Source of the DNA: Candidatus Saccharimonadales bacterium
Lineage (GTDB): Bacteria > Patescibacteriota > Saccharimonadia > Saccharimonadales > Saccharimonadaceae
Direction of reading: 5' to 3'
Assembly: GCA_047974525.1 (NCBI GenBank)
Contig: JBKECJ010000007.1
Coordinates: forward strand, 36,508 to 100,507
Length of the DNA: 64,000 nucleotides
Each line of letters starts with the position of its first letter. The first letter of the stretch is position 1. This document shows, piece after piece, positions 36,301 to 57,751 of the stretch. Below the pieces are notes generated by a model. That model was not told the DNA's origin and made no database searches. It worked only from the letters and a program-made list of their open reading frames with translations. The translations under genes and the position numbers were made by a program.

Positions 36301-36422
36301 TCTCACGCACTACCTAAAGGCCATCATAGAAGATATCGCCAGATCTATTCTGGCGATTTTTCAATCGAAAAAATACCCGCGAATCACTTCGCGGGTAGTT
36401 ATTCTCATAAAACATAAAAAAA

Positions 36423-36455
36423 TGGAGCCGCGATCGGGATTTGAACCCGAGACCT
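36423..36455 (-). other. tRNA 3'-end fragment (T-arm plus acceptor 3' strand with encoded CCA): attachment-site core copy
   Basis: Minus strand reads GGTCTCGGGTTCAAATCCCGATCGCGGCTCCA: a perfect T-stem/loop and a 3' acceptor strand. No matching 5' half, D-arm or anticodon arm upstream. Lies directly beside the integrase. Confidence 0.6.
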
Positions 36456-36613
36456 CATCCTTACCATGGAAGTGCTCCATCGCAACAGATAGCGACTCTT
36501 GAAATAACCTATGACACATCATATCGATCCGCACAGATCAGTTTGTTTAGGAACAACGATTCAATAACCCCATATTAGCATTTCGAGCTCAAAAAGTCAA
36601 TATGTTTATGGTC

Positions 36614-37465
36614 TCATATGGAATGAAATTTGCGATACTGAGCTTCAAGATCATTGTCTACGACGTGGGCGTACATTGCAGTCGTATCCATCGAAGAGTG
36701 TCCCATCATAGCGCTCAGATAGCGCATATTGCCGTTGTTTTTTAGAAAGTTAGTTGCATACGAGTGGCGTAACGTATGGGGCGTTACGCGATTAGACTCT
36801 AGCCCTGCTTTTCTCGCGGCGTTACGTATGACGAGCTGTATGGTTGTATGATTTATCCGCTCTCTATGCTGGAACGAAACTATGAGAGCCTCACAGTTGT
36901 CTTTACGAGTCGCGAGATAAGACTCCATGAGTTGTTCTGTTCTCTCGTCGATAAAGCAAAGCCTTGGCTTACTACCCTTTCCAATAATAGTAAACCGGCG
37001 CTCGACGATCTGCCCTCGATTAAGAGATATTAGCTCGGATAGCCTGATTCCAGAGCTATAAAGCAGAGAGACAATAAACTGTGCTCGAATGTTGCAAGCA
37101 GAGTTTATCATCGCCGTGACTTCTTCGGAGGTTAAAAATCTTGGGACTGTCGAGGAGCGCTTTGGTACCGGTATCATACCTGCTTTTATGCAAGGTATTT
37201 CTCGAATATTTAGGTAGTTCAGGACTGTACGCAGTCTGACGATATAATTGCGAACAGTATTCTGCGATCGCCTCTTCGAGAGATAGTTCTTCCAATCTCG
37301 GACATCGTCGAAGGATAATTCAGAAATTGGCTTATCGGGTACAAAAAGAAGCAATGCTTTCTTGCATACCTCGTGGTTTTCCTCGGTTTTAACGGATTGG
37401 TTCTTAAATCGAATATAATCGTTCTTATATAATTCAAATGCCTCTGAGATTAGTAATTCTCTCAT
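36614..37465 (-). CDS. tyrosine recombinase / phage integrase
   Basis: 283 aa; C-terminal ...HTLRHSYATNFLKNNGNMRYLSAMMGHSSMDTTAMYAHV... (R, H-x-x-R, Y catalytic pattern). Confidence 0.85.
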   Translation of the reverse strand: MRELLISEAFELYKNDYIRFKNQSVKTEENHEVCKKALLLFVPDKPISELSFDDVRDWKNYLSKRRSQNTVRNYIVRLRTVLNYLNIREIPCIKAGMIPVPKRSSTVPRFLTSEEVTAMINSACNIRAQFIVSLLYSSGIRLSELISLNRGQIVERRFTIIGKGSKPRLCFIDERTEQLMESYLATRKDNCEALIVSFQHRERINHTTIQLVIRNAARKAGLESNRVTPHTLRHSYATNFLKNNGNMRYLSAMMGHSSMDTTAMYAHVVDNDLEAQYRKFHSI

Positions 37466-37527
37466 TAAAAAAGCACTCCTCCCTTAATTATTCGTAGGGT
37501 TTCAGAGTGCTGATTTGTTCTTTCAAA

Positions 37528-37908
37528 TTACGCCGCTGCTGGCCGTACCACCCGATTCCGATAGTCTACGTAGTTTCCTTTTGTGTGTCTTGGAGCCGTC
37601 ATTGGGCTTAACTGACCTTTGCCATCTAGCTCGTCCTTAAGAATTCTGCTGAAGACTCGTGACCTGTCTCGTATTTCGCTGTCTGTCCTGACTATTGACG
37701 CAATCGTTCTGTATCGTTGCTCACCTAGTGCCTTGAAGCATTTGCAATGCCAAGGCGTCATGTCTGGATTACTTGTAGAGATTAGCTCTCCGCCTATGCT
37801 GATGACCTTCTCTCTGATTTCTAAAGCTGATAGTTTCCTATCTTCAAATTGCAATTTGCTATTTACTCCTTGCAATTTAGAAGTTGCAATTTGTTTGATT
37901 GACTCCAT
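37528..37908 (-). CDS. hypothetical prophage protein
   Basis: 126 aa ORF upstream of the integrase, same strand. Confidence 0.4.
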   Translation of the reverse strand: MESIKQIATSKLQGVNSKLQFEDRKLSALEIREKVISIGGELISTSNPDMTPWHCKCFKALGEQRYRTIASIVRTDSEIRDRSRVFSRILKDELDGKGQLSPMTAPRHTKGNYVDYRNRVVRPAAA

Positions 37909-38514
37909 CTGTTATTACCTCCAAATTTTTAACGCACGAAAGGTCTTACGCTCTGTTGACCTCTTAGCGTCTATTTTTTATGATAAGAAAAGATAATGCA
38001 AGCAAGAGCGTTACTCGAAATTAAAAATTCTTATGTTTGTCAAGAAATCAAAAGACCTCTTGCGAGGTTGTTTGATTTTGGTCGATACCATAATACTAGC
38101 GCACTTTAAGCGTTTTGTCAACCTGCGCCCCGTGCATTTTACTTTCTTCTCCGCATCGATATAATAGATAGTGGGTGCCTTAGCATGGATTAGCAATCGC
38201 GCTCAGCGTCAACGACGCTAGTAGGTGCTGCGCGTCGATTTTATTAAATTTAATTTCAAATGGAATCTGGGAATATCTCAGATCAAAAAAGAGGATTCCA
38301 CAAATAATCTCGAGAATATTAACTTTGATCATGATAGGAGTAGTAATGGTAACATTTATAACTTCAATTAGTTCGACGTGCGGCGCTGAGCGAGATGGCT
38401 AATCCAAGAATGTTTACTCGTTTCCGCGCCCGCCGCGTGGTGGGCGCCGGCGCGCTTTAGTTCCACCACGAAGTGATATATAATGGAGATACAGCCTTGT
38501 TTGTAGGCTGCGTG

Positions 38515-38590
38515 CTAGCTTAGCTCAGTTGGTAGAGCAGAGGCTTTAAGACCCTCAGGCCATCGGTTCAAATCCAGATAGCTAGCACAT
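38515..38590 (+). tRNA. prophage-encoded tRNA-like gene with atypical anticodon/T arms (anticodon UAA if standard numbering)
   Basis: GCTAGCT-TA-GCTC-AGTTGGTA-GAGC gives canonical acceptor and D arms. The anticodon stem GAGGC/CCCTC has a C.C mismatch and the loop is TTTAAGA. The T region ATCGG-TTCAAAT(C)-CAGAT is imperfect. 3' acceptor strand AGCTAGC. Preceded by TGATATATAAT at ~38473-38481. Confidence 0.55.
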
Positions 38591-38652
38591 AATCTACAAA
38601 CTACGAATATTGGGTAAGCTCGGAAGCGGGCGCGGTTAAGATAGGAGAAGAG

Positions 38653-38922
38653 GTGAGTAAGTTCAAGGATCAGCTAGTCATGGCGTTTATTGCGAAGAAT
38701 TCTGGTGACTTTCCACAATACTACGTCACGGACGAGACGAAGCTGTATCGTATCGAAGACGAGGATTATTTGCTGGCGCAGGCGGTCGTTAGTGGGGCGG
38801 TGGACGAGGAGCGCTTCTATTTGATTGCGAAGAAGCACGTGTGCGGTACAGCTATTTTAAATATGAGCGGCGCGAGGGAAATAACTTCTGACGAAGCAAA
38901 AGAGTTATCTAGTCATGCGTGA
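38653..38922 (+). CDS. hypothetical protein, first gene of a coupled pair
   Basis: GTG start with RBS AGGAGAAGAG; 89 aa. Its stop overlaps the next start (ATGCGTGA). Confidence 0.5.
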   Translation: MSKFKDQLVMAFIAKNSGDFPQYYVTDETKLYRIEDEDYLLAQAVVSGAVDEERFYLIAKKHVCGTAILNMSGAREITSDEAKELSSHA

Positions 38923-39880
38923 TGTCGGCGGGTACCTTCAGGCATTCTCGGCGCTCGAGGCGGAAATAAATGCGCTCAGCTACTCAATTTTATTTGACGA
39001 CAACCAAATTAATACGTATTCAATGAAAATCGCCGAACTCGTCATGCGATCCGGCATTGAGCTCGAATCGGTGGCGAATGATATATTCAGGGGATGGACG
39101 AGTGAGGATGAGATAAAGAATGACGACGGGGCGGCCGAAAAATCATTCGCGTGGCTAAAGAAAAGTAGCGGATGGAAGCTTGAGCAAAAACAGATCTCAA
39201 TACTTTCTCCTTCTATGTTTTTCTCCAGAACTTTCTCTCCGTCGTTTGCTCCGTTTGGGTATAAGAAAAATTCGTCTGACGACTACTATTCTGCCTACAA
39301 TAGCATTAAGCACGACCGCGCCAAGAACTCGCATAAGGCGAACCTGAATATACTGATCCGATCTATGGGCGCGCTGTACGTTCTGCTGACATACTTTTAT
39401 GGCTCTAGGATAAATTCGACAATATTCTCGGCTAGCGTAGCCGATGCGAAGCTCAGTTTTTTGTCCGATTTTGGGATGGATTTCAGTAGCGACCTAGACA
39501 GGTCTATATTTCTTACTTTGTACGATTGGAGATACTACGACTATAAAGAGGCGCACGGCGAAACCCTGAGAGGACTTATCGAAACAATCAAGCGCAACGG
39601 ACGAGAAGACGCGGTTAGAAAAATCGCGAGGTTCCCTAGGACGTCCTACGATACGATTTTTAGATTTATCCTTAGAAACTCCTCGGAAGGAATTAGTATG
39701 CCGGAAAGAAACAAACTCGCAAGGAGTCTCCTAGCGGACGGACTGCTAAAAGAGCTCGAAATGCGAACGAAAGTAAACTACAACTACGAGCGAATTTACG
39801 CTGAGTCCGAGTCGGAGCTTGCCGACGAGAACGAAACGTATAGCCGTCGCATTTGCGATAATTTTGACGACCATATATAG
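38915..39880 (+). CDS. hypothetical protein with a possible HEPN-like R-x4-H motif; candidate abortive-infection/defence cargo
   Basis: 321 aa. Motif ...YNSIKHDRAKNSHKANL... (R-AKNS-H). The only plus-strand genes at this end of the prophage. Hairpin TAGTCGC-TGCTATT-GCGACTA downstream. Confidence 0.5.
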   Translation: MRDVGGYLQAFSALEAEINALSYSILFDDNQINTYSMKIAELVMRSGIELESVANDIFRGWTSEDEIKNDDGAAEKSFAWLKKSSGWKLEQKQISILSPSMFFSRTFSPSFAPFGYKKNSSDDYYSAYNSIKHDRAKNSHKANLNILIRSMGALYVLLTYFYGSRINSTIFSASVADAKLSFLSDFGMDFSSDLDRSIFLTLYDWRYYDYKEAHGETLRGLIETIKRNGREDAVRKIARFPRTSYDTIFRFILRNSSEGISMPERNKLARSLLADGLLKELEMRTKVNYNYERIYAESESELADENETYSRRICDNFDDHI

Positions 39881-39998
39881 AAGCTTATCGTCTGACGATC
39901 TGGCGGACGGACAGAAAAATAGTCGCTGCTATTGCGACTATCTTCCTACTCATTGTTATCGAAAAACTCTTTTCTTAAATCATAGTTTACACTAAAAA

Positions 39999-40214
39999 CT
40001 ACTTCGATTCAAACATTATCGTTTTGACAAAAGTTTTCTTCTGTCTGTCGATCTCATTGAATGCGTATCCAAGCAACATATTAACTGTCATATTTAATGA
40101 CAATGATTGCTCTTCGGATAGCTTGCTCACCCTTCCATATAGTTCTTTGTCCGTTATTCTTAGCGCAATTGGAATTGTTTTATTCGCGTCTCCAATCTGC
40201 TTAATAGCTTGCAT
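39999..40214 (-). CDS. small prophage protein (71 aa)
   Basis: Internal start MQAIKQIGDANKT... with RBS GGAGAGGAG; the longer track ORF has no RBS. Confidence 0.4.
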   Translation of the reverse strand: MQAIKQIGDANKTIPIALRITDKELYGRVSKLSEEQSLSLNMTVNMLLGYAFNEIDRQKKTFVKTIMFESK

Positions 40215-40324
40215 TTTGCGCTCCTCTCCATTTTCTTCTTTTTTTGATTGCTTTTGTAGTAGGTTCAACTTAAATATGGGCACACCTCCCATAAGCCAGA
40301 CGGACAGTAGCAAGTAATTGCGCT

Positions 40325-40594
40325 CTACAACTCGACGACTGTTACGCTATAAGCCAGATGTACGTCGGTCTCTGACTCAACTTTGATTTTAAACTCGTCG
40401 CAGAGATTTCTCACCTGCTCCAAGTTTTGGCTCGAAGTAAACCATAACTTAACTGCACCGCTCTTTTGACTGTATTCTGCAATCTCGGCGTTTTCGGCAA
40501 ACCGATTCGCTATTTCTAGCATGGTTGTATTAGCATTCACATTGATTCGTTTCAACTCTATCTGGTAGAGCGAAAAGACTTTTTGTTTTAACAT
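40325..40594 (-). CDS. small prophage protein (89 aa)
   Basis: ORF adjacent to the 71-aa gene, same strand; terminator hairpin AATGCAAC-ACTTTT-GTTGCATT then TTTT at 40671-40697 upstream. Confidence 0.4.
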   Translation of the reverse strand: MLKQKVFSLYQIELKRINVNANTTMLEIANRFAENAEIAEYSQKSGAVKLWFTSSQNLEQVRNLCDEFKIKVESETDVHLAYSVTVVEL

Positions 40595-40695
40595 TGAGTA
40601 TGTTATCGTCTGGCTTTTTAAGCTGCATAGCTTACCTGCTACTCATCTAGTATAGCGCATTTGCAATAAAAATGCAACACTTTTGTTGCATTTTC

Positions 40696-41064
40696 TTATA
40701 TTCCCATAGCCTTCCGGTACTGGTCGATCTCAAATGCCATGTACTGGTCTTCTCCGTCCTTCACGTACTCCCCATAGAGCTGCATAATCTGCCGACTTCT
40801 CGACCCAGTATGGTCTCCGCCGCCACTTATATCTGCCTGAATCAACACGAGAATCTCGAGCTTTTTCGAGATTCTTACTTGCTCTGCGCCACCAGACTCA
40901 AGCTCTCCGACCCGCGCGTCCATCGCAGCGACCCTGTAATCCACGATCCCAATGAGCAGTCCGCCTACTATACCAAGCGCAGCGGCACCTCCAGTAATTA
41001 TACCGGGGATTGTTTTGAAGAATTTTAGTATTGATTCTGACGCTTTAGACATGCTTTCCGCCAC
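40696..41064 (-). CDS. membrane protein of the lysis cassette (single TM, Gly-rich)
   Basis: 122 aa; ...FFKTIPGIITGGAAALGIVGGLLIGIVDY... hydrophobic segment. Confidence 0.4.
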   Translation of the reverse strand: MAESMSKASESILKFFKTIPGIITGGAAALGIVGGLLIGIVDYRVAAMDARVGELESGGAEQVRISKKLEILVLIQADISGGGDHTGSRSRQIMQLYGEYVKDGEDQYMAFEIDQYRKAMGI

Positions 41065-41178
41065 CTGTTTAAGTTTTATTTTGCACTCTCTTCTATCCCC
41101 TTGCCCATGCCCAGAAAACGGAAAGTCAAAGGGGCATGGGTAAGAGGATAGAGCTTCATTTAGGCGTCACTCGTAAAA

Positions 41179-41469
41179 TTACGCTTCATTGGTTTTCGCC
41201 TTGTTGTAGTTGAGCTTGAACTTATCCAGCATCTTATTGAGCGCCGCAGAGACTGCCAGAGCTACACCCATCGTCTCTAGACCATAAGACAGGTTTAGGG
41301 CGTATGCTACGCCGAGATAGGCAAGGCTTAGAATCGGAATCATGTAGGCGAAGAAAGCTAGTAGATCATAAACTACGCTAGGCAGATAAATGCCAGTCCA
41401 CCCGTCCTCCTGCGTGACGCGATCCGTCTCGCTCATTGAGTCTTCTGCGGATTTCTTTTGGTCTTCCAT
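41179..41469 (-). CDS. holin-like two-TM protein
   Basis: Start MEDQKKSAEDS... (ATG 41469, 1 nt after the endolysin stop). Two hydrophobic helices ...LLAFFAYMIPILSLAYLGVAYALNL... and ...METMGVALAVSAALN... Confidence 0.45.
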   Translation of the reverse strand: MEDQKKSAEDSMSETDRVTQEDGWTGIYLPSVVYDLLAFFAYMIPILSLAYLGVAYALNLSYGLETMGVALAVSAALNKMLDKFKLNYNKAKTNEA

Positions 41470-41470
41470 A

Positions 41471-42139
41471 TTAACCCCCAAACCCATAACCTTTGAGCTT
41501 CGCGAGCGTAATCGGCCCAATAAACCCATCAGCCTTCAGCCCAGTTCGTTTCTGGAACTCCGTGATTGAGGCTACTGCATAGGGACCATAGACGGGTCCG
41601 AGCGCCTTCGCATTGGTATATGCTGGGTAGTTCTTGCGCATGAATGCCGTAATGCGCCCGATGATGTCTCCTTTATCGTTTAGCTTCCAGTAGCCACGAG
41701 CTGGGAGTTCTGTCGTAACGTCCGCTCCGGATACTTCTAGAACCCTAACGTTTTCGACGTCTTCCGTCCATCCAAGAATGGTCGGCTTATAATCCTGAAC
41801 ACGATTCGCCCATGCCGTGTAATTTTTATACGCGACGAAGCGTCCGGTATTATTGTCGTCCGAATAAAAGACACCAGTCTTGGGGTTATATAGCATAACA
41901 TGGTCGTTCGTACTTATAGCACCATAGCGTATCCATACTGGGATTAAGACGTCTATTTTGGGCAGATCATAGATTCCGTAATGTTTGGTCTTTGAGGCGT
42001 CCCATGCGGCGCGCGCGTTTCTGTACTTAGCGTATGAATCGGATATTCCATATGCACGCCTGACATCTCGTAGGCACCATCCGAGCTGAGTCGCGATAGT
42101 TAGGTTAGCTGACCTGAGTTGTTTAATTGTCGTTATCAT
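41471..42139 (-). CDS. endolysin: CHAP/NlpC-like amidase/peptidase domain plus C-terminal peptidoglycan-binding domain
   Basis: 222 aa. N-terminal Cys (...QLGWCLRDV...) and downstream His (...NDHVMLY...) as in CHAP. C-terminal ...ITEFQKRTGLKADGFIGPITLAKLKGYGFGG is a PG_binding_1-type repeat. Confidence 0.6.
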   Translation of the reverse strand: MITTIKQLRSANLTIATQLGWCLRDVRRAYGISDSYAKYRNARAAWDASKTKHYGIYDLPKIDVLIPVWIRYGAISTNDHVMLYNPKTGVFYSDDNNTGRFVAYKNYTAWANRVQDYKPTILGWTEDVENVRVLEVSGADVTTELPARGYWKLNDKGDIIGRITAFMRKNYPAYTNAKALGPVYGPYAVASITEFQKRTGLKADGFIGPITLAKLKGYGFGG

Positions 42140-42248
42140 CGGGCTCTCCAGTCTGGTCTACGTCGGGAATTTCGATAGACTCCCCATTCGTTTGTTCGAT
42201 AGATAGTGGCTGGCTATCTGGAATTTGATTTGTAATTTCTTCGCTCAT
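42126..42248 (-). CDS. small acidic ORF (40 aa) overlapping the endolysin start
   Basis: Own translation MSEEITNQIPDSQPLSIEQTNGESIEIPDVDQTGEPDDNDN with RBS AAAGGAGATGT. Below the ORF-track length cutoff. Confidence 0.3.
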
Positions 42249-42263
42249 ACATCTCCTTTCGTT

Positions 42264-44285
42264 TTAAACTTTCGTGTAATACATCGTAAAGAATGACCTA
42301 GTGTAGGTGGTATAGGTGCCGGTTGAATCAATCACGATTTGGGTTGTATTCGCGTAGGCGTTCGTACTCGTGCCATACGGAAACGGCAAAAAGCTCGTTC
42401 CATCCGTCATGAACGATTCTAGTTTGACGACAAGATCTATGCCTGCCACGTCATGAGTTATGCGGGTAGTGCCGGTCGTGACAGCGGTAGTTTTCAGGAT
42501 AGTTTTCTTGTATATAGTTTTGCCGTCGACCCATTTGCTCGAAGTAGCTACTTCACTCGAGGCGTAGTTGAAATCTCCAATTGAATCAAAATCGATATTA
42601 TCGGCCTTCGTCATATTGAAATCGATTATTGATGCAGGCAACCATTGGTTAGAGGAATTCTTTGATATGACGCCAAGCGGTAGCTCCTTAGGCGGAAATT
42701 CACCAATTGAATCTGCATGCTGCTTCAAAGTTCCGCTTGAATCGAGCGTGAGATAACCGACGCCCCCAGCCGGAATTACTGTTGTCGTGTTAGGAATAGT
42801 TTGCTGATCAACGATAACCCACTCTCCATCGACCAGCGCGGCGCCATCGGATAAAACGAGCAAGCTCGCAGACGCGGACAGTGTGCAGCCGTAGGCTACC
42901 TTTGAGGGGCTGGGAATAAGGGCGTCAACGTATGACTTATTTGTGATGTCGCTCGCGGATGACGGGGCTGAAACTTGAGACCTTCCAGACGCGTCACGCT
43001 CGACGATAGTGCCCGCGAGCGGCGAGGAACTAATATCCGTAATAGATTGGTCGCCGGAGCTCGACACGACGTACGCCCGGTCATTCGTAGAGGCGTCCGT
43101 AATTTTATCTAGCTTTCCGGAAGAAAGTGCCGAGATGTCTGAGGTATTAGTCGAAACGGACGACTTCAGGGTGTCATAGCCGTTAACGGATCCGGTTCCG
43201 TCCGCTTCGGCGAACACTTGGCCCTCCGACGCACTGCCTTTTATTAGTCCTGGGACTGAATTTGTAAAGTTAGCGATTGGCGTTGATCCTCCGCCAGAAT
43301 TTGTGAGAATCCACTCTTCGCCAGACGAAGTTCCGTAATACCCAAAGCGCCTTTGGTTGTCGATGTCCCATAAGACCGCTCCGTTTATTACTGTTGTTTG
43401 TCCAGAAGCGGCAATCCAAGCATTAGTGATGTCTGTCTGCGTGTATATCTCCGGAACGCCATTTGCGGCGAAAGCTTCATTTTTCAACGACACTATATCA
43501 TTTTTTGCCTGCTCGAGCCCCAAGAAAGTTGCGGCATTCATCATGCCAGCTTCAGTTTCGTTAGCCGTTGGGAATACGGCTTGCGTAGAGCTTTGAGTTC
43601 CATCTGATAGATTTATCGTATCCATGTCGGCCGTTACGGCACTAGCGTCGGTCGATAGACTAAAAGTCTCAATTAGATCGTAATTCGCGTCCGTTTTATT
43701 CACGACGTCTGACGGCTTGGCAAAGCTTTCTGGATTATACCCGCTGTCTTCGGCAATTTGCCCATCACTAATGGACACAAAATTCCCAGCTACTCCCTCG
43801 ATTTCGAGGCTTCCGGGGTCTCCCTTTTCGCCTGTAATTACTTCGATCGTTATCGACTGAGAGCCGCAATCGTTGATAAACACCCTAGAGCCAACTGCCC
43901 CGTCAATAGTCGTATTGCCAGAATTAGCATTGCTCGGCCCCCCAGTAACCCCAAACTCAAGAATTGCTTTTCTAAGCGGAATGTCGTTTTCTTCAACCAC
44001 GACTATATCGGCATAATAAACGGATTCTGGGTCGAGCTGGCTTTGCTCTGCCGTAATTGGAAAAAGAACTTTTGAATTGTCTTCAGGATCTAGTTCGCCA
44101 GTAATAATAAATTTCGCACTCGTGGAGTCGCTCTCGTCGTCAAATGGAACGTCCTTGCATGTCAGCGTAATGGTCGCCCCCTCAAGACTAGTAGGCTGCC
44201 CATTCACTCTGTAATACATCAAAATAGAGTTGTAGACCCCGCGGTTTAGATTGGCGATTCTGGTAGTTCTAAGGCTTCGCGCCAT
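42264..44285 (-). CDS. tail fiber / receptor-binding protein
   Basis: 673 aa, Ser/Thr/Gly/Asn-rich with repeated beta-like segments; ends the structural module before lysis genes. Preceded by conserved late promoter/leader element (a). Confidence 0.55.
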   Translation of the reverse strand: MARSLRTTRIANLNRGVYNSILMYYRVNGQPTSLEGATITLTCKDVPFDDESDSTSAKFIITGELDPEDNSKVLFPITAEQSQLDPESVYYADIVVVEENDIPLRKAILEFGVTGGPSNANSGNTTIDGAVGSRVFINDCGSQSITIEVITGEKGDPGSLEIEGVAGNFVSISDGQIAEDSGYNPESFAKPSDVVNKTDANYDLIETFSLSTDASAVTADMDTINLSDGTQSSTQAVFPTANETEAGMMNAATFLGLEQAKNDIVSLKNEAFAANGVPEIYTQTDITNAWIAASGQTTVINGAVLWDIDNQRRFGYYGTSSGEEWILTNSGGGSTPIANFTNSVPGLIKGSASEGQVFAEADGTGSVNGYDTLKSSVSTNTSDISALSSGKLDKITDASTNDRAYVVSSSGDQSITDISSSPLAGTIVERDASGRSQVSAPSSASDITNKSYVDALIPSPSKVAYGCTLSASASLLVLSDGAALVDGEWVIVDQQTIPNTTTVIPAGGVGYLTLDSSGTLKQHADSIGEFPPKELPLGVISKNSSNQWLPASIIDFNMTKADNIDFDSIGDFNYASSEVATSSKWVDGKTIYKKTILKTTAVTTGTTRITHDVAGIDLVVKLESFMTDGTSFLPFPYGTSTNAYANTTQIVIDSTGTYTTYTRSFFTMYYTKV

Positions 44286-44327
44286 ACAATATCCTCTACA
44301 TGGCGCCTAATAACTTAATTATACCAC
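44286..44327 (-). promoter_or_regulatory. conserved late promoter/leader element, copy a
   Basis: Minus strand TGGTATAAT-TAAGT-TATTAGGCGCCATGTAGAGGA-TATTGT-ATG. Confidence 0.55.
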
Positions 44328-44328
44328 A

Positions 44329-44754
44329 TCACGATTCAAACGGCGACAAGAATGTGTTGATTTTTAGAGTTATCGTCTGACCGACATTCGTGACAGTAGC
44401 TCCATCTTGGTAGCTAATACTGTAATTTGGCTCGACGTGAATCCTCACTTGTCCCGTAGCTGGTCGATAAATATATCCAATCAAGAAATCCTCCGTAGTC
44501 TGTCCGTTGAAAGTATACGTCGCCGGAATGTTAAAGTTGGGAGTAATAACGCTTTTGCCAGGGTACTTGCTGGATGATATATTGAATCGCATGCTCGCGG
44601 ATTTTTGTCCGACAGCAGCGGTCGCCTCGAATGGAGAGATCGTGCTGCCAGCTGGTATCACGAACGTAGCGGGGATCGTCAGCGTCAACGCGCCTGAATC
44701 ATCATTTATCGTCGTAGCGTAATCGGTATTTATGTTGAATCTGCTAGGCTTCAT
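44329..44754 (-). CDS. phage tail/baseplate-associated protein
   Basis: Start MKPSRFNI (ATG 44754, 8-nt overlap with the upstream gene's stop). Confidence 0.45.
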   Translation of the reverse strand: MKPSRFNINTDYATTINDDSGALTLTIPATFVIPAGSTISPFEATAAVGQKSASMRFNISSSKYPGKSVITPNFNIPATYTFNGQTTEDFLIGYIYRPATGQVRIHVEPNYSISYQDGATVTNVGQTITLKINTFLSPFES

Positions 44755-45415
44755 CGGCGTAAATCCTGCAATAAAAATACCCACTCCCCGTCGCAAAGCT
44801 AACTTCGGAAGACGAGACATTCATAATTGAATTTGCGATACTTGAAGTGCCCAATATGTCATTATTCAGCTCTACCCATCTGTATACTCCCGAAGACACT
44901 TCGATGCGCTGCCATGCGTCCACCTGTGGCACGAATCCGAGGTTATGAGGCACGCTCACCTGTCCAGAAGTTGCGTCGGCAAAATTATCGAGATAAAGCT
45001 TCGGGTAGTTGAAATCGCTATTCAAGACAAACTTGTTCGCGCTCTTGTCTCTCGTAGGGGCTACAACTACATCTAAGGTCGTCGCCTCGTGGAAGACGCC
45101 CCAAAGTCGTAACACGAAGCTCGTGACGTTTGCCAACCCGTGGACGTAGACATTGGTTTCGTCCGATTCAACAGCGACCTGTTTCGCAATCTGCTGTATG
45201 TCGTTGACTGTTATGTTTGTAGGCCACGTAGTGTCCCAACTGTCGGACGACCAAGTGCCTTTAACGAATGGTATTGCGCCGAGTTCGTGAGGTATCGTCA
45301 GGCTGAATCCGCCCTGTGGGTTGCTTATGGTTCGTTCGTCTGGGAGCCAGATTATTTTATCCATCGGATAGTCGGAATTTATACCAAAATTGTTAATTCT
45401 AGCGGGAGCCGTCAT
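44744..45415 (-). CDS. phage tail/baseplate-associated protein
   Basis: 223 aa ORF in the tail module. Confidence 0.45.
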   Translation of the reverse strand: MTAPARINNFGINSDYPMDKIIWLPDERTISNPQGGFSLTIPHELGAIPFVKGTWSSDSWDTTWPTNITVNDIQQIAKQVAVESDETNVYVHGLANVTSFVLRLWGVFHEATTLDVVVAPTRDKSANKFVLNSDFNYPKLYLDNFADATSGQVSVPHNLGFVPQVDAWQRIEVSSGVYRWVELNNDILGTSSIANSIMNVSSSEVSFATGSGYFYCRIYADEA

Positions 45416-45708
45416 GTTGATTTTAATTCTTCAAGAACATTATAGCCGCTCTTAGCTATCCATAGTCCCGGACGCCTATCGTCTGGAGCCTGTCCGAAAA
45501 GAGCCGAAGGTAATCCGCTGGAGTCGTATACGAGCTCGCCGAAGTTTTTGTCTGGGAGCCTGCCTGAAATCAACGCGGACTGCCCGTTCCCGCCAGCGAT
45601 CCTCTTAGTAAACACTTCAGAGTCAAGCATTTGAAGGTTGCGATTTATGGCGGCAATCTGAGATGCCATATCCATATCCTCATTTAGCATCGTGAATCGA
45701 TTGGCCAT
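45412..45708 (-). CDS. small phage tail-module protein
   Basis: 98 aa; overlaps neighbours by 4 nt. Confidence 0.4.
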   Translation of the reverse strand: MANRFTMLNEDMDMASQIAAINRNLQMLDSEVFTKRIAGGNGQSALISGRLPDKNFGELVYDSSGLPSALFGQAPDDRRPGLWIAKSGYNVLEELKST

Positions 45709-47682
45709 TTAGCGAATCCTTTGCGCCTGCGCCGTTATCGTATGACTTTCAAGACCAAACGGCTCGAAGGCGGCGTGGTGTTTGTATCGAAGCTGCGCTC
45801 GACGGAATTCTCCGTAAACATAAGGCAACGTGGAGAGAATCGTGCCAGGCAACTCGTCCTCCCATCCGTAATCTTCGTACGATATTGAGTCTCCAGAAAA
45901 AACACTTACAGAGAAAGCGTAGTTTACTTTTGTGCTAAAGTCCTTAGCAAAGCCGCAATCCACTTTGTACTCTCTGCCCTCTTCGGAGATCTCTGGTCGC
46001 CATTTCGTAATTCGCTTTAATAGCGCCGGAGCGCCAAACCCTTGAAATATCGTGCCAAGCTCGCTCCGCAGGATGCCACCAATGTTGCTCGAGCCGGCAT
46101 CTGAATTTTCGCCCTTAAATATAGCCCCAACGCGACTAGAGCCTTGCAAGAACTCGCCATTAGGATTGTTGCGCGCGGCGGTAGCAGAGACGTATGCGTC
46201 CGTGTCGATAGACTCCCAAGCGCCCGTAATTAAATGGTAGACTAAGCACTTATTGTTTTCTACTGAGTCACCATCGGCGTAAAACACAAATAGCCTATTA
46301 TCGAAAAGTTCTGTGATGATTTGGCTTTTATTCTTAATAGCCGAATAGACGTCGTTGATTGTTTCGCCAGTAATATCTTTTTCGCTCGTTCCATTGAATA
46401 TGTATATTCCGTCATTTGATGGGTAGTATATGAAGTTCGTATCAGCCGATATGCTCTCTTGCGTAAAAGTGCCTTTCTGGGCTGCAGCGGAGTTCATGGT
46501 AAAAGTAGTCCAGTCATCGCCATAAAGTGCGTATTTGTTTCGTTTAGTCAAAAAGAAAAGCGTTCCGCCCAGCTCCACGAAAGCCGCTAAATCATCACCG
46601 CATTTTGGAGCCGGAATATCACTTACGAACGATTGTTCGACGTCAAATTTGTCATAAAGCGGTAAACGCTCGGAAGTAAAAACACCATTAGGATCATCGG
46701 CAGACATGTAAAACAAAAACGAGCCAAACATCATTACGTTCCTTGCAGATAAGTTCCGGCCGGAAGGATCGGCAATCTCTATTTCGGAGAAATCTTCCAA
46801 AAGAATAACTCTTGGATTACCGCCCGCGTCGCCTACATAGCGCACCGCGGCCACGGGGTCAGAATCATCATCTGGTACATATTGCGCTTGATTGAAGCGT
46901 ACCTTCCTAGTCCCAGTTGGGAGTTCGTCATTCTGGATCGTTGTTTCTCCGCTTTCGTCGGTTCGGTAAAGAATTCCATTCTGAGCGAAAAACGTCGTAA
47001 ATACCCCAGAATTATTTGCGACGAAAATACTATCGACGCCTCCGGCGGTCGCGCTAATCAGTCGATATAATGCTCCGTTATTGCCAAAATCCGTTGAGGT
47101 CTGTATGTAGAAATCTCCTGCGGCATCTGGCTGGAGCGAGAATTGCAAAATATAATTACCACCAGAAACAATATCTGGAGCGTTAACGAACTTAACTTCA
47201 ACCTGAGTCTGCATGGTAGATAAGTCTGGGTAGTTAATATTACTGTGTGCCACCAAATCTCCCCGCGAGCCATCTTCGTTCTGCGCGTATAGTCTTACGG
47301 AGACTACACCCTTAGAGTCTAAGTCTTTTCGACACATGAATTGTATAGCCCAAAGCCTAAAGTCACCTGAAGCCACTACGGGCACTTCTAGCGTCGAATC
47401 GCCCGATAATACATATTCTTCCAAGTTCTCATCCGACCATTGCTCTTGAGCCGTTGCGCGCCCCATAGCGTCGAACTTTACTGTGCTCCCGTGACGCGTC
47501 CTATACTTTCCAATCTTCTCCATGCGCATGTCCTGTGCAATAAGTAGGTCGTAAGGCTTGAGTTTTTGTTCCGGCGTATACGTTTTGATGCCGCCACTAA
47601 AATCTGCCGAGACGCTCTCAAACTTCCGACTCGATGATTTCGGGATAGTCTTTGATCGTTTAAATCGTGACTTTATGGCCAT
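45709..47682 (-). CDS. large phage tail/baseplate structural protein
   Basis: Start MAIKSRFKRSK (ATG 47682); ~657 aa; Asp/Gly/Ser-rich. Confidence 0.5.
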   Translation of the reverse strand: MAIKSRFKRSKTIPKSSSRKFESVSADFSGGIKTYTPEQKLKPYDLLIAQDMRMEKIGKYRTRHGSTVKFDAMGRATAQEQWSDENLEEYVLSGDSTLEVPVVASGDFRLWAIQFMCRKDLDSKGVVSVRLYAQNEDGSRGDLVAHSNINYPDLSTMQTQVEVKFVNAPDIVSGGNYILQFSLQPDAAGDFYIQTSTDFGNNGALYRLISATAGGVDSIFVANNSGVFTTFFAQNGILYRTDESGETTIQNDELPTGTRKVRFNQAQYVPDDDSDPVAAVRYVGDAGGNPRVILLEDFSEIEIADPSGRNLSARNVMMFGSFLFYMSADDPNGVFTSERLPLYDKFDVEQSFVSDIPAPKCGDDLAAFVELGGTLFFLTKRNKYALYGDDWTTFTMNSAAAQKGTFTQESISADTNFIYYPSNDGIYIFNGTSEKDITGETINDVYSAIKNKSQIITELFDNRLFVFYADGDSVENNKCLVYHLITGAWESIDTDAYVSATAARNNPNGEFLQGSSRVGAIFKGENSDAGSSNIGGILRSELGTIFQGFGAPALLKRITKWRPEISEEGREYKVDCGFAKDFSTKVNYAFSVSVFSGDSISYEDYGWEDELPGTILSTLPYVYGEFRRAQLRYKHHAAFEPFGLESHTITAQAQRIR

Positions 47683-48331
47683 ATGGCAACCTCGCCCTAT
47701 TACCGCTGTCGTTTTGTCGAGGCCCAAATCGCCTCTTCATATTCTCAATGACTTCGAGCTGCTTGTTTTCGTAAATTTGCGCAAAATCAAAGTTGTCTCG
47801 CCATTGCTCTACTCTCGCTAGCGCCCCGAGTACGAGGCATTCGCTAAATTCGTCCGGGATAACGGCCTTGTCTTCCGGCTTCACTAGCTGTTTTGGCTTC
47901 GCCAGGTACATATGTCGAACTTGCCATAGCTCAGGCAGCCCCCCAACCGTCGGCGCACAGGGCTTATTGTCGCGCGGCAGAGTAAAGAATACCTTATTCG
48001 AAAATACGGTATAGGTGTAGTTTCTATCCGGATACGCATATTCCGTAGATTTATCGAAATACTCGCGGAATGGCAGATACCTCAGCCTTCGAGGCATCGA
48101 GCCTTTCTTATTCACTAGTATCTGCTCAGTCTGCTGCCAATCGCGCGGCAGATCCAGCTCTCCCCCGCTTACCTCCACGGGATCGTCATAACGTTCCAAA
48201 AACATATATTCTGCTTCGCCCAGAATTTCATTTTGGCAATCATTCAAAAAATCGCCAATCTGACCATCGCCTAACTCGGGATCTTTCGCTTTGTTGCGTA
48301 CCCTCTCTGTGAGCTGCGCTAATGTAGTCAC
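47660..48331 (-). CDS. phage tail-module protein
   Basis: GTG start at 48331 preceded by GGAGA and conserved element (b); 223 aa. Confidence 0.5.
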   Translation of the reverse strand: MTTLAQLTERVRNKAKDPELGDGQIGDFLNDCQNEILGEAEYMFLERYDDPVEVSGGELDLPRDWQQTEQILVNKKGSMPRRLRYLPFREYFDKSTEYAYPDRNYTYTVFSNKVFFTLPRDNKPCAPTVGGLPELWQVRHMYLAKPKQLVKPEDKAVIPDEFSECLVLGALARVEQWRDNFDFAQIYENKQLEVIENMKRRFGPRQNDSGNRARLPYGHKVTI

Positions 48332-48372
48332 AATAATCTCCTACATGGCGCCTAATATTTTAATTATATCAC
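48332..48372 (-). promoter_or_regulatory. conserved late promoter/leader element, copy b
   Basis: Minus strand TGATATAAT-TAAAA-TATTAGGCGCCATGTAGGAGA-TTATT-GTG. Confidence 0.55.
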
Positions 48373-48484
48373 ACAGATATTACGATTTCCACTTCAATAC
48401 GCGTTGTTTTATGGTTATGCTGTATCGTTTCTGAGAATATGGTAAAATTAAACTAATTTAATCTCTTGGAGAGAAGGAAGCATA

Positions 48485-48793
48485 ATGGATAAAAAGTTAG
48501 TGCAGCCAAACAACAAAAAGACGCTAATAATCGCTGGGGCTTGTCTGCTCGCCGTCGCAATCCTATCCGCGACTGCGCTGATTATTGTCAATATGCTCAA
48601 TACGAAAGATGATGATTCTGCGCAGAGGCTTGAAGATGCGAAAAACTGCGTAGTATCGGCAGGCCAAAAATCTACTTCCGGATCATTTGCAGACGGTTCC
48701 TATACTCCGTCAGGCGCCAGCTACACACAAATTATCGCCGAATGCGCTGAAAAACATAGCGTCTCTTATGGCGACCTAACAGCCGAATTATAG
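48485..48793 (+). CDS. small membrane-anchored protein (counter-oriented cargo gene)
   Basis: 102 aa; N-terminal TM LIIAGACLLAVAILSATALIIV; RBS GGAGAGAAGGAAG; extended -10 TGGTAAAAT at ~48435-48443. Confidence 0.5.
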   Translation: MDKKLVQPNNKKTLIIAGACLLAVAILSATALIIVNMLNTKDDDSAQRLEDAKNCVVSAGQKSTSGSFADGSYTPSGASYTQIIAECAEKHSVSYGDLTAEL

Positions 48794-48805
48794 GGGTCGC
48801 ATCGT

Positions 48806-49267
48806 ATGAGCGAGGCTCCGAATGCTAAAAAGCACAACACAAAGGTCGCTACTTATCTCGTCGCAGGCTCACTTATAGTTTTAGGGTGCGCTGCCTTCGA
48901 CAGCCAAACTACTTGCGAAAGACAGCCCATTCCTTTCGCAACAGAAACAGTTCGTCTAGATAATCAGTATGCGGACTATAGGAGCGAGGCGGCAGGAATT
49001 AGCGGGGAAAAAGAAATCTGCCGACAGCACGGAAAAATAGTCTCCGAAAGAACGACAGCAAGTCCAGTTAGCAAAAAAATATATGTCGGCACGATCGCCA
49101 GGTCGCCAAGTGCAACATATACCCCATCTACCCCCAGTAGCCAATCTCCTCCGGCCACAACGCCGAGAGGGAGAACAGGGGCAATCTGTAATGATGGCTC
49201 ATCAAGTAAAGCAACGGGCTCTGGGGCGTGTAGCCACCACGGCGGCGTAGCGTATTGGACGTACTAA
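48806..49267 (+). CDS. putative secreted/lipoprotein with Pro/Ser/Thr-rich linker and Cys-rich C-terminus
   Basis: 153 aa; signal-like VATYLVAGSLIVLGCAAF; ...SPSATYTPSTPSSQSPPATTP... Confidence 0.5.
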   Translation: MSEAPNAKKHNTKVATYLVAGSLIVLGCAAFDSQTTCERQPIPFATETVRLDNQYADYRSEAAGISGEKEICRQHGKIVSERTTASPVSKKIYVGTIARSPSATYTPSTPSSQSPPATTPRGRTGAICNDGSSSKATGSGACSHHGGVAYWTY

Positions 49268-49268
49268 A

Positions 49269-49598
49269 ATGAAGTATGTATTATTTATCATTGGCGTAAT
49301 TGGGATTATCTGGTCGATTTGGATGCTCGGCGGAAAAATAGATAACCACAAAGAGACTGGGTTGAAAATTTGCGGAGATTTATATGCCTATGATGGAGTG
49401 TATCATGACAATGACTTTATTTGGTACGCAGAATGCTATAGTGAATATGACGATTCAGCAAACACTTGGTTCGGATGGTCGTTATTCTTGCTCATAATAG
49501 GCACGCCGGTCACGATATTGTCTGGAATTGCAATCCTGCGCTCCAAGAGCAACGCAAAAGCCACTCCCAAGCAAGTCAACGATTCGGTCACTGGTTAA
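49269..49598 (+). CDS. small two-TM membrane protein
   Basis: 109 aa; MKYVLFIIGVIGIIWSIWMLGG... and ...WSLFLLIIGTPVTILSGIAIL... Confidence 0.5.
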   Translation: MKYVLFIIGVIGIIWSIWMLGGKIDNHKETGLKICGDLYAYDGVYHDNDFIWYAECYSEYDDSANTWFGWSLFLLIIGTPVTILSGIAILRSKSNAKATPKQVNDSVTG

Positions 49599-52228: not shown

Positions 52229-53040
52229 TATCTAGTTGCCCCCACTCCCCCGAACGAGCCACCACCAGATTTATTCACTAGGGCAGGCAACCCAAGCATA
52301 GATCGTTGATGATTAGTAGCAGTACCATTGATAACAGCGCGTGCGTTTGCATCGCCAGCGCTCGCCATATCGTTCAATATGTCGTTCATGGTAATCGTCG
52401 AGGAGTTTAGGGCTACATAAGCATTCGCAGTTATCGGCTTGCCATTTGCATCATAAAAATAAAATCCATTCATGTCGTTACCCTTATTTGACCCCCTTTG
52501 AACTCGTCCGACCGTCTTCGTCTCAGCTGCCTTTTGCGTATTGTAGTAGTCGCTCAAAGCCTTAGCCTGAATTGAAGCGGCTTCTCTCTGAGCCTGTAGC
52601 TGCGCCTGACGATCAAGATCGGCTTGGTAGAGGCTCTGCGCATACTTATACTGATCGTTCGTCAGCGAGTTTAGTGTGTTCTCGAGGTCGAATTTGCGAT
52701 TATTATAATTCTGTCGAGTAGACTCCTGATTTGCGTTCAAATCGCGGTTTAGCTGTGTCACGGCAGGAGTATAACTATTCTTCTCGTAATTAGCGGCATA
52801 ATTCTGCCCAATATTACTCCAGCCAAGTCCACGGTTAGCCGCAGTAGACTGCGCGCCGTAGTTGTACTGGTCTTTTGCGCTATCGAGTCCACCTTTGTCT
52901 ATATTGTATTGCTCGCTCAAAGAGTTAAGGGCTCCCGTAAGCTGATCTGGGATAGCGTTAATCTGGTTTTGAATGCCCTGCTTTTGCGAAGCGTAAGCTG
53001 GGTTTGATTGTTCTATATATGTCTGAAGAGATGTCGCCAC
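52228..53040 (-). CDS. phage structural protein (Gln/Asn-rich)
   Basis: GTG start 53040 preceded by conserved element (c); 270 aa. Confidence 0.45.
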   Translation of the reverse strand: MATSLQTYIEQSNPAYASQKQGIQNQINAIPDQLTGALNSLSEQYNIDKGGLDSAKDQYNYGAQSTAANRGLGWSNIGQNYAANYEKNSYTPAVTQLNRDLNANQESTRQNYNNRKFDLENTLNSLTNDQYKYAQSLYQADLDRQAQLQAQREAASIQAKALSDYYNTQKAAETKTVGRVQRGSNKGNDMNGFYFYDANGKPITANAYVALNSSTITMNDILNDMASAGDANARAVINGTATNHQRSMLGLPALVNKSGGGSFGGVGATR

Positions 53041-53082
53041 GTAAAATCCTCTACATGGCGCCTAATACTTCTATTGTATCAC
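53041..53082 (-). promoter_or_regulatory. conserved late promoter/leader element, copy c
   Basis: Minus strand TGATACAAT-AGAAG-TATTAGGCGCCATGTAGAGGA-TTTTAC-GTG. Confidence 0.55.
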
Positions 53083-53173
53083 GCGCCATCAATTTTTCCT
53101 ATATTTTAATCGTCGAATCAGCTCGCTCAATTGTGCCCCCGAACGTATCGGGGACACTAGGAACGAGCTATCC

Positions 53174-54094: not shown

Positions 54095-54140
54095 AAGTAT
54101 CCTTTCAAAAATTAGGGTTAAATCCGCAACCTAATTTCAA

Positions 54141-54872: not shown

Positions 54873-54995
54873 GAACTCTCCGTTAAATTAAGTTGCTTTC
54901 ACGGGGATAACTCCCCGTAATCCTAGCCCTGGTCATGTTTTTAGGCACCATGTCCAAATTGGATTATTTAATAAAATCCTAGGCTAGGGTTACGA

Positions 54996-57151: not shown

Positions 57152-57233
57152 TATAGCTCCATGAAACTAAAATTCACCAGCTTATGTGCCAAAAAAACAC
57201 GAGCGCATTTACTCGTGTTTTTCCGCGACGTAC

Positions 57234-57710: not shown

Positions 57711-57751
57711 AGCAATTCTCCTCATGGCGCCTAATATATTCACTATACCAC
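57711..57751 (-). promoter_or_regulatory. conserved late promoter/leader element, copy d (variant)
   Basis: Minus strand TGGTATAGT-GAATA-TATTAGGCGCCATGAGGAGA-ATTGCT-ATG. Confidence 0.5.

What the first reader, a model, noticed from the sequence alone, without database searches (positions are those of the whole stretch)
36423..37465. Prophage left boundary: tRNA 3'-half att core next to a tyrosine integrase
A perfect tRNA T-arm plus 3' acceptor strand and CCA (GGTCTCGGGTTCAAATCCCGATCGCGGCTCCA, minus strand) lacks any 5' half. It is followed within 160 bp by a tyrosine recombinase. Convergent terminators at 36345-36371 and 36384-36407 separate it from host genes. This is the classic footprint of integration into a tRNA 3' end; the intact tRNA should lie at the other prophage end, beyond 64 kb.
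Basis: partly seen in the sequence, partly recalled or inferred. Interest (0 to 1): 0.55.

Follow-up and report, generated by a model that had tools for sequence, protein, structure and literature searches.

The report
Prophage junction in a tRNA-Thr gene
This is one end of a roughly 30-kb phage inserted into the threonine tRNA gene of a Saccharibacteria bacterium by the phage's own integrase, which is the most common way phages insert into bacterial chromosomes, so it is real but ordinary.

Summary
The 32-nt tRNA piece is at 36423-36454(-) and is unique in the window. A complete tyrosine integrase (36614-37465, -) lies next to it. Two terminator hairpins separate the piece from host genes.

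The tRNA-derived block is longer than reported. The 48 nt at 36423-36470 are identical to tRNA-Thr(GGU) of Saccharibacteria, from the anticodon stem to CCA. No D arm or 5' acceptor strand is present.

Left of the block is host core DNA (rpsL, rpsG, fusA, tuf). Right of it, to the window end and beyond, is a phage: endolysin, tail, capsid, portal and terminase genes.

Free-phage contigs with related integrases carry the same tRNA-Thr 3' piece 110-160 nt downstream of the integrase gene, with phage genes on both sides. That is the phage attachment site (attP). One provirus contig with the same layout shows both ends: piece plus integrase at one end, intact tRNA-Thr 36 kb away on the same strand.

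This is therefore the integrase-proximal junction of a tRNA-integrated prophage, of the anticodon-centred type. The intact tRNA at the far end of this prophage lies beyond the window. I could not reach it in any collection.

It is a new member of a known kind, of low to moderate interest.

The parts
36423..36470 (-). 48-nt att common core. It equals tRNA-Thr(GGU) from the last 3 nt of the 5' anticodon-stem strand through the anticodon loop, variable region, T arm and 3' acceptor strand to CCA. Downstream of the crossover it is the host's displaced tRNA 3' part.
   Evidence: Exact and unique in the window. Identical over 48 nt to variant-A tRNA-Thr(GGU) of Saccharibacteria MAGs, with identity stopping at 36471 and at 36422. 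The ends of two Logan k=31 contigs (phage contig starts at 36441, host contig ends at 36452) fit a repeat of exactly 36423-36470.
36471..36486 (-). tRNA-like part of the phage arm (GUUGCGAUGGAGCACU). It resembles the 3' D-stem strand and 5' anticodon-stem strand, with a U-U mismatch in the anticodon stem. GUUGCGA can pair with the 3' acceptor strand.
   Evidence: Rfam tRNA hit 36426-36486 at 32.8 bits with the D arm deleted. The closest free-phage attP (L080) has the same TTCC...GGATG mismatch. The minimum-energy fold is not a cloverleaf, z = -1.09.
36374..36397 (-). Intrinsic terminator-like hairpin on the tRNA's strand, 26 nt after CCA. It is most likely the host tRNA-Thr gene's own terminator.
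   Evidence: 10-bp stem with 6 G-C pairs and tail TTTTTTCG.
36335..36357 (+). Terminator-like hairpin ending the host ORF 35791-36300(+).
   Evidence: 9-bp stem with tail TTTTCAAT.
36614..37465 (-). Tyrosine integrase, 283 aa, with a Xer-like two-domain build and no arm-binding domain detected. It is transcribed toward the att core.
   Evidence: PF00589 at 1e-30, plus SAM-like N-terminal domains. XerA 5hxy at 1e-31; I read the catalytic residues off that alignment: R in GIRLSEL, K in GKGSKPR, HTLRH, GHSS and MYAHV. Homologues of 43-66% identity lie next to tRNA-Thr(GGU) or its 3' piece in 5 Saccharibacteria MAG loci and at least 9 viral contigs.
37528..37908 (-). 126-aa ORF directly upstream of the integrase gene, function unknown. 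Its position would suit a directionality or regulatory factor, but that is not shown.
   Evidence: No Pfam or PADLOC hit. The gene is also called on the Logan contig.
38514..38588 (+). Prophage-borne tRNA-Leu(UAA).
   Evidence: ARAGORN. Rfam 55.4 bits.
41471..42139 (-). Endolysin with a peptidoglycan-binding domain.
   Evidence: PF01471. PHROG endolysin families.
53174..54094 (-). Major head protein.
   Evidence: phrog_422 at 1.1e-12.
55280..57151 (-). Portal protein.
   Evidence: phrog_1216 and phrog_332. PF23899 SU10_portal on the Logan contig.
58404..59783 (-). Terminase large subunit.
   Evidence: phrog_2, phrog_3717 and phrog_2472 at about 1e-27 to 1e-29. PF04466.
36471..64000 (.). Prophage body. 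It continues past the window end, at least to about 64160.
   Evidence: The 27,720-bp Logan contig SRR30067235_44091 equals window 36441 to about 64160; two mismatches were found over the ~24.4 kb of it compared, and it carries only phage-type genes.

Best explanation
Positions 36423-36486 are the integrase-proximal junction of a temperate phage of about 30 kb. The phage has SU10-type (podovirus-like) portal and adaptor genes and is integrated in the tRNA-Thr(GGU) gene of a Saccharibacteria (CPR) bacterium. The phage's attP lies 110-160 nt downstream of its small Xer-like tyrosine integrase gene and contains a copy of the 3' 48 nt of the tRNA, from anticodon stem to CCA. The integrase exchanged strands between attP and the host gene inside this shared block, most likely at the anticodon stem-loop. 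Two consequences follow. (i) At this junction, phage DNA runs into the host's original tRNA 3' part, its CCA and its terminator, leaving a displaced, non-functional fragment. (ii) At the far junction, beyond the window, the host's 5' tRNA part should be joined to the phage's copy of the 3' part, restoring a working tRNA-Thr. Shown: the fragment and its 48-nt identity to the host-type tRNA; the intact integrase; host DNA on one side and phage DNA on the other; the same piece as attP in related free phages; and both ends in an analogue. Inferred: the intact tRNA at the far end of this prophage, the exact crossover point, and that the prophage is still able to excise.
For: The fragment is exact and unique. 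It is identical over 48 nt to tRNA-Thr(GGU) of Saccharibacteria, and all 48 genome hits for the 32-mer are Saccharibacteria or CPR MAGs. The integrase is established by Pfam and by alignment to XerA, where I read the catalytic residues off the alignment. Phage genes run from 41 to 63 kb and host ribosomal and elongation-factor genes lie to the left. A terminator follows the tRNA piece on its own strand. The Logan k=31 contigs of a near-identical strain break exactly as a 48-nt repeat at 36423-36470 predicts. Integrase relatives in viral contigs L058/L093, L060/L078, L061/L114, L065, L080 and L109 have the tRNA-Thr 3' piece 111-161 nt after the integrase stop codon, on the same strand. Homologues of this phage's genes lie on both sides in L058, L061 and L080 (and downstream as well in L060), which identifies the piece as attP. 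MAG contigs L006, L019 and L032 show the same order of integrase, fragment and host flank. IMGVR_UViG_3300033074_000212 has the fragment plus integrase at positions 1-1060 and an intact tRNA-Thr(GGU) at about 36.3 kb on the same strand. The two copies differ only in the T arm, which places the exchange 5' of the T arm. The principle that a regenerated tDNA and a displaced 3' fragment mark island ends, with anticodon-centred attP the commonest class, comes from PMC4383910.
Against: The second copy of the core and the intact tRNA of this prophage were not observed, because the window ends inside the phage. The source genome is absent from the genome, JGI and IMG/VR collections. No closely related genome with an empty site was found. 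The Logan contig breaks could equally come from other Saccharibacteria in that sample that share the same tRNA sequence. The crossover position is inferred from a single analogue whose integrase is only 43% identical.
Confidence: 0.85

Rival explanations
1. Assembly chimera. The sample held free phage (attP) and non-lysogenic host (intact tRNA-Thr, attB), and the assembler joined the phage left arm to the host flank through the shared 48-nt core, creating a junction that does not exist in any cell.
For: In the k=31 Logan assembly of a near-identical strain, the host and phage contigs are separate and break inside the core. That graph is the same whether attL/attR or attP/attB are present. Related phages do carry the core as attP.
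Against: A 48-nt repeat is shorter than ordinary reads and shorter than the k-mers of most modern assemblers, so a join normally needs spanning reads. Independent MAG contigs (L006, L019, L032) and CANBEI010000002.1, which holds both ends 28.2 kb apart on one contig, show that integrations of this kind into this tRNA are real.
Confidence: 0.06
2. Decayed or stranded prophage. The junction is genuine, but the far end has been lost or rearranged, so no intact tRNA or core repeat remains and the element can no longer excise.
For: The far end is unseen. One relative (L009) has an integrase hit split across two frames, so decay does occur in this group.
Against: The integrase ORF is full length and I could read all catalytic residues. 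Every structural gene examined is an uninterrupted ORF. The core has 48 of 48 identity to the host-type tRNA. Only two mismatches to an independently assembled copy were found over the ~24.4 kb compared.
Confidence: 0.06
3. The piece is a functional, unusually short (D-armless) tRNA-like gene and not a recombination scar.
For: Rfam's tRNA model scores it 32.8 bits, above the gathering score of 29, over 36426-36486. GUUGCGA can form a 7-bp acceptor-like stem with UCGCGGC. A promoter-like site lies upstream at 36600-36572(-).
Against: ARAGORN finds nothing. The D arm is absent and the anticodon stem has a U-U mismatch. The minimum-energy fold is not a cloverleaf and is no more stable than shuffled sequence, z = -1.09. 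The score is less than half that of intact tRNA-Thr, 70.3 bits, and a relative's attP piece scores similarly at 30.0. Promoter-like sites are no more frequent than chance, 4 found against 4.8 expected.
Confidence: 0.02
4. tRNA-dependent lysogeny. Integration destroys the host tRNA, and a phage-borne tRNA of the same isotype compensates.
For: The prophage carries a tRNA gene 2 kb from the junction. The mechanism exists in actinobacteriophages (PMC10865867).
Against: That mechanism is defined by a ~10-bp core that does not rebuild the tRNA and by a phage tRNA of the same isotype. Here the core is 48 nt and reaches the CCA end. The phage tRNA is Leu(UAA), not Thr.
Confidence: 0.01

Closest known systems
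Integrative elements in tRNA genes with an anticodon-centred attP and a displaced 3' tDNA fragment (Islander class A; Williams 2002; Hudson, Lau and Williams 2015, PMC4383910)
   Same: A tyrosine integrase is present. attP carries the 3' part of the tRNA starting at the anticodon stem-loop. The displaced 3' fragment marks one end of the element. By analogy, the regenerated tRNA marks the other end, on the same strand.
   Different: Nothing is different in principle. The integrase lies next to the displaced fragment rather than next to the intact tRNA; close relatives show both arrangements. The host is a CPR bacterium.
Saccharibacteria prophages predicted by VIBRANT (120 reported; PMC10746230)
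   Same: Same host phylum, and an integrated phage carrying terminase, portal and integrase genes.
   Different: The passages I searched in that paper (terms 'prophage', 'integrase', 'attachment') gave no attachment-site or tRNA-target description. Here the junction is resolved to the base, and the target tRNA-Thr(GGU) is seen repeatedly.
Xer-type tyrosine recombinases (XerA 5hxy, XerD 1a0p)
   Same: These are the best sequence matches among solved structures. They share the two-domain build of about 283 aa and the same catalytic residues.
   Different: This enzyme is encoded in a phage next to a tRNA-derived att site, not as a chromosome-dimer resolvase acting at dif. No arm-binding domain was detected, unlike lambda Int.
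tRNA-dependent lysogeny of actinobacteriophages (PMC10865867)
   Same: A tyrosine integrase, an attB overlapping a host tRNA gene, and a tRNA gene carried by the phage.
   Different: The core here is 48 nt and reaches CCA, so the tRNA can be rebuilt. The phage tRNA is a different isotype (Leu against Thr).

Membership tests
tRNA-integrated prophage or island (Islander definition) | Tyrosine integrase gene inside the element | tested here: met
   PF00589 at 1e-30. Alignment to XerA, from which I read R, K, HxxR, H and Y.
tRNA-integrated prophage or island (Islander definition) | A 3' fragment of a tRNA gene at one end, identical to the host-type tRNA up to its 3' end | tested here: met
   48 of 48 nt identity with Saccharibacteria tRNA-Thr(GGU), ending at CCA, with flanks diverging immediately after.
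tRNA-integrated prophage or island (Islander definition) | Intact cognate tRNA gene at the other end, same orientation, fragment downstream of it | not testable with these tools
   The far end lies beyond the window and beyond the Logan contig (about 64160). The source genome is not in the searchable collections. The feature is met in the analogue IMGVR_UViG_3300033074_000212 and in CANBEI010000002.1.
tRNA-integrated prophage or island (Islander definition) | Foreign (phage) gene content between the ends and host genes outside | tested here: met
   TerL, portal, major head protein, tail and endolysin genes lie to the right. rpsL, rpsG, fusA and tuf lie to the left.
tRNA-integrated prophage or island (Islander definition) | Empty site (uninterrupted tRNA with the same downstream flank) in a related genome | tested here: inconclusive
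   None of the 48 genome loci shares the flank. No relative of the adjacent host protein was found in JGI metagenomes.
Anticodon-centred attP class (Islander site A) | Identity block between attP and tDNA begins at the anticodon stem-loop | tested here: met
   The block starts 3 nt before the anticodon loop. It starts at the same place, 46-48 nt, in L006, L019, L030 and L032, and in the attP of L058, L060 and L061.
Anticodon-centred attP class (Islander site A) | Strand exchange at the anticodon loop | not testable with these tools
   Only bounded so far. In one analogue the two copies differ in the T arm, so the exchange is 5' of it. Mapping it needs attL of this phage or an in vitro assay.
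Functional tRNA gene | Complete cloverleaf with D arm and 5' acceptor strand | tested here: not met
   No ARAGORN call. The covariance-model match requires deleting the D arm, 32.8 against 70.3 bits. The fold is not a cloverleaf.
tRNA-dependent lysogeny (PMC10865867) | Short (~10 bp) core that does not rebuild the tRNA, plus a phage tRNA of the same isotype | tested here: not met
   The core is 48 nt and reaches CCA. The phage tRNA is Leu(UAA).

The most novel reading that the evidence does not exclude
The most novel reading has two parts. First, a family of small Xer-like integrases of Saccharibacteria phages has repeatedly re-oriented its attP relative to the integrase gene (same strand here and in L080; convergent in L079, L085, L009 and L025, at 60-66% integrase identity) and has retargeted it from tRNA-Thr(GGU) to tRNA-Ala(CGC) in L059 and L062. 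Second, because the integrase gene is transcribed straight into the att site, its mRNA would end in the host tRNA 3' part and terminator only in the integrated state. That would give a sib-like, state-dependent control of integrase expression.
Probability: 0.12. Interest if true: 0.5.

Novelty: new member of a known kind. Interest (0 to 1): 0.3.

Why it matters
The result fixes one prophage boundary to the base in a genome of the Candidate Phyla Radiation, where temperate phages have mostly been predicted only by automated tools. It also shows that tRNA-Thr(GGU) is a recurrent integration target for one integrase family in Saccharibacteria. This is useful for delimiting prophages in CPR MAGs and for linking IMG/VR phage contigs to Saccharibacteria hosts through their attP sequence. 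It could also supply an integrase/attP pair for genetic tools in these hard-to-manipulate bacteria. Mechanistically it adds nothing new.

Tried and rejected
**Chimera idea.** I first thought the fragment was a hybrid of two tRNA-Thr variants, B-like 5' and A-like 3', that would map the crossover to the anticodon loop. I dropped this when the closest free-phage attP (L080) showed the same TTCC...GGATG mismatch, so the phage arm is tRNA-like by itself.

**Reaching the far end.**
- Walking with exact-protein look-ups stopped at a repeat-induced contig end at about 64160.
- Homologues of the last, beta-solenoid ORF lie in unrelated phages.
- IMG/VR has no relative of the 130-aa end gene and no copy of the 32-mer or of the phage arm.
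- The JGI scan for the adjacent host protein found nothing.
- The JGI scan for the arm-plus-core pattern found only an unrelated organism's intact tRNA.

**Empty site.** None of the 48 genome loci shares the host flank, and tblastn of the flanking host proteins against those loci gave no hits.

**Logan contig breaks.** I considered these as proof of a second core copy. I downgraded them because many Saccharibacteria share the same tRNA sequence.

**Accessory genes.** PADLOC and Pfam found nothing for the ORFs near the integrase.

Full report
**1. The observation**

It occurs once in the window even when 3 mismatches are allowed, and none is expected by chance. ARAGORN finds only one tRNA in the window, tRNA-Leu(UAA) at 38514-38588(+), and nothing at the finding.

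Rfam's tRNA model does match 36426-36486(-) at 32.8 bits, above its gathering score of 29. The alignment deletes the D arm (13 model positions replaced by 2) and has a U-U mismatch in the anticodon stem. An intact Saccharibacteria tRNA-Thr(GGU) scores 70.3 bits, and the attP piece of a related phage scores 30.0. The 64-nt stretch does not fold into a cloverleaf, and its energy is ordinary for its composition, z = -1.09. It is therefore a tRNA fragment and not a gene.

The ORF 36614-37465(-) is a tyrosine recombinase. It hits PF00589 at 1e-30, plus SAM-like N-terminal domains. Its closest solved relatives are XerA, a XerC-like protein and XerD. I read the catalytic residues off the XerA alignment: R, K, HxxR, H and Y.

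Two terminator-like hairpins lie between the fragment and the last host ORF. One is at 36335-36357(+) and one at 36397-36374(-). The second sits 26 nt after the CCA, on the tRNA's own strand.

**2. What the fragment is**

A scan of one genome per species (185,579 species) for the 32-mer gave 48 loci. All are in Saccharibacteria or other CPR MAGs. In about 40 of them the match is the 3' end of an intact tRNA-Thr(GGU).

Two sequence variants of this tRNA exist:
- Variant A: ...GAGCGCATCCATGGTAAGGATGAGGTC...
- Variant B...GAGCACTTCCATGGTAAGGAAGGGGTC...

The window's piece is identical to variant A over its last 48 nt, 36423-36470. This covers three bases of the anticodon stem, the anticodon loop with GGT, the variable region, the T arm, the acceptor 3' strand and CCA. 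It differs from position 36471 onward. In all loci the flanks diverge directly after CCA. The core is therefore 48 nt, not 32, and it starts at the anticodon stem-loop.

**3. Host on one side, phage on the other**

To the left lie rpsL, rpsG, fusA, tuf and the ribosomal protein operons.

To the right lie, in order, the integrase, a tRNA-Leu, an endolysin (41471-42139), tail proteins, the major head protein (53174-54094), the portal (55280-57151), the large terminase (58404-59783), and VRR_NUC and YopX genes. Small ORFs continue to the end of the window.

A near-identical strain is present in the Logan assembly of SRR30067235.
- One 27,720-bp contig equals window 36441 to about 64160. I compared ~24.4 kb of it and found two mismatches.
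- One 49,393-bp host contig begins at window 36452 and runs leftward.

With k = 31, those two break points are exactly what a repeat spanning 36423-36470 produces. This agrees with a second copy of the 48-nt core in that sample. It could also come from other Saccharibacteria there that carry the same tRNA, so I treat it as consistent but not decisive. The phage contig ends at about 64160 inside a repetitive beta-solenoid gene, not at a phage end.

**4. Relatives show what the piece does**

Integrase homologues of 43-66% identity occur in IMG/VR contigs of 27-36 kb and in Saccharibacteria MAGs.

In L058/L093, L060/L078, L061/L114, L065, L080 and L109, the tRNA-Thr 3' piece begins 111-161 nt after the integrase stop codon, on the same strand. 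The window has the same geometry, at 145 nt to CATGG. Homologues of this phage's tail and adaptor genes lie upstream, and homologues of its VRR_NUC, YopX and terminase genes lie downstream, in L058, L061 and L080. There the piece is flanked by phage DNA on both sides, so it is attP.

The closest of these is L080, with 66% integrase identity. It has the same imperfect TTCC...GGATG stem, so the tRNA-like bases to the right of 36470 belong to the phage arm.

MAG contigs L006, L019 and L032 show integrase, then fragment, then host flank, as in the window.

IMGVR_UViG_3300033074_000212 (36,411 bp) shows both ends in the window's layout. The fragment and integrase are at 1-1060, and an intact tRNA-Thr(GGU) is at about 36,310-36,385 on the same strand. 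Its two copies share ATCCATGGTAAGGATGAGGTCC and then differ by three bases in the T arm, each copy keeping a paired stem. The strand exchange therefore lies 5' of the T arm, in the anticodon stem-loop or variable region.

A second layout also exists, with the integrase convergent with the intact tRNA.
- It is seen in L009, L025, L079 and L085, at 60-66% integrase identity.
- In CANBEI010000002.1 the intact tRNA is at 26,517-26,591 and the fragment is 28.2 kb downstream on the same strand.

**5. Mechanism**

The best explanation is Campbell-type site-specific integration by the phage integrase between an attP that copies the 3' 48 nt of tRNA-Thr(GGU) and the host gene.

At this junction, phage DNA is fused to the host's original tRNA 3' part and terminator, leaving a dead fragment. 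At the far junction the host's 5' part should be completed by the phage's copy.

This is the standard arrangement used to map islands. In Islander, 3,760 of 3,919 islands have a 3' fragment and 2,083 have an anticodon-centred attP (PMC4383910).

The integrase has only core-binding and catalytic domains by Pfam. How direction is controlled is unknown. The 126-aa ORF upstream has no family match.

**6. Rivals**

- **Assembly chimera through the 48-nt core.** I cannot exclude this without reads. It is unlikely given read lengths and the independent MAG examples.
- **Stranded prophage without a far end.** This is possible, but all genes examined are intact.
- **Functional D-armless tRNA.** Rejected.
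- **tRNA-dependent lysogeny (PMC10865867).** The defining features are not met: the core is 48 nt and reaches CCA, and the phage tRNA is Leu.

**7. What could not be done**

I could not observe the far end of this prophage or an empty site in a sister genome. The source species is absent from the genome set, JGI metagenomes and IMG/VR. Judged from relatives of 27-36 kb, the far end should lie roughly 0.5-9 kb beyond the window.

**8. Novelty and verdict**

Prophages of Saccharibacteria are already reported in bulk: 120 were predicted in PMC10746230. Integration into a tRNA gene at the anticodon loop is the commonest known mode.

Three things are new, and all are modest:
- a base-resolved junction;
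- the recurrent use of tRNA-Thr(GGU) by this integrase family in Saccharibacteria;
- both attP orientations among close relatives.

This is a new member of a known kind. Interest is 0.3.

Noticed in passing
window 38514-38588 (+): The prophage carries a complete tRNA-Leu(UAA) gene 2 kb from the junction (ARAGORN; Rfam 55.4 bits). Loci with related integrases also carry tRNA genes near the att region: Tyr and Leu(UAG) in L039, Tyr and Lys in L024, and Ser in L054 and L055.
   Followed up: partly
window 29642-32872 (-): The host str operon is interrupted. A 580-aa Band_7 protein and a 472-aa alpha-amylase-family protein sit between rpsG and fusA (Pfam labels from the Logan contig).
   Followed up: no
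window 63832-64000 (-), continuing in L001 1-329: The ORF that runs off the window end is a YdcK-type beta-solenoid protein (homologues carry PF18836, 150-186 aa). Its repetitive DNA (GCGTTGCCGGAGACC...) is where the Logan contig stops.
   Followed up: partly
window 38915-39880 (+): A 321-aa ORF on the strand opposite to the phage late genes, next to the tRNA-Leu. It contains an RAKNSH (Rx4H-like) motif but has no Pfam or PADLOC match. It could be an accessory or defence gene.
   Followed up: partly
L047 3790-3937 (CAYYWU010000012.1): An intact tRNA-Thr(GGU) is followed 8 nt later by a second copy of its T arm and acceptor end, TCTCGGG...AAATCCCGATCGCGGCTCCA, split by a ~40-nt insert in the T loop. 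It may be a scar of another element that targets the T loop.
   Followed up: no
L059 10993-11068 and L062 10974-11049: Integrase relatives of 47-54% identity in viral contigs lie next to a complete tRNA-Ala(CGC) on the opposite strand instead of a tRNA-Thr piece. Part of the family appears to have changed its target tRNA.
   Followed up: no
L009 2707-3500 (CANBEI010000002.1): The integrase homologue next to the intact tRNA-Thr matches in two segments in different frames, which suggests a frameshifted, decaying gene.
   Followed up: no
window 63560-63590: A perfect 10-nt inverted repeat, GTACCGATCG / CGATCGGTAC with an 11-nt spacer, lies in the ~260-nt gene-poor gap between the 130-aa ORF and the next small ORF (63707-63835). 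It could be an operator or a terminator.
   Followed up: no
window 36484-36492 (-) and L068 phage arm: The motif ATCTGTTGC lies 15-25 nt upstream of the core both here and in the both-ends analogue, whose integrase is only 43% identical. It may be an integrase-binding site or may be chance.
   Followed up: no
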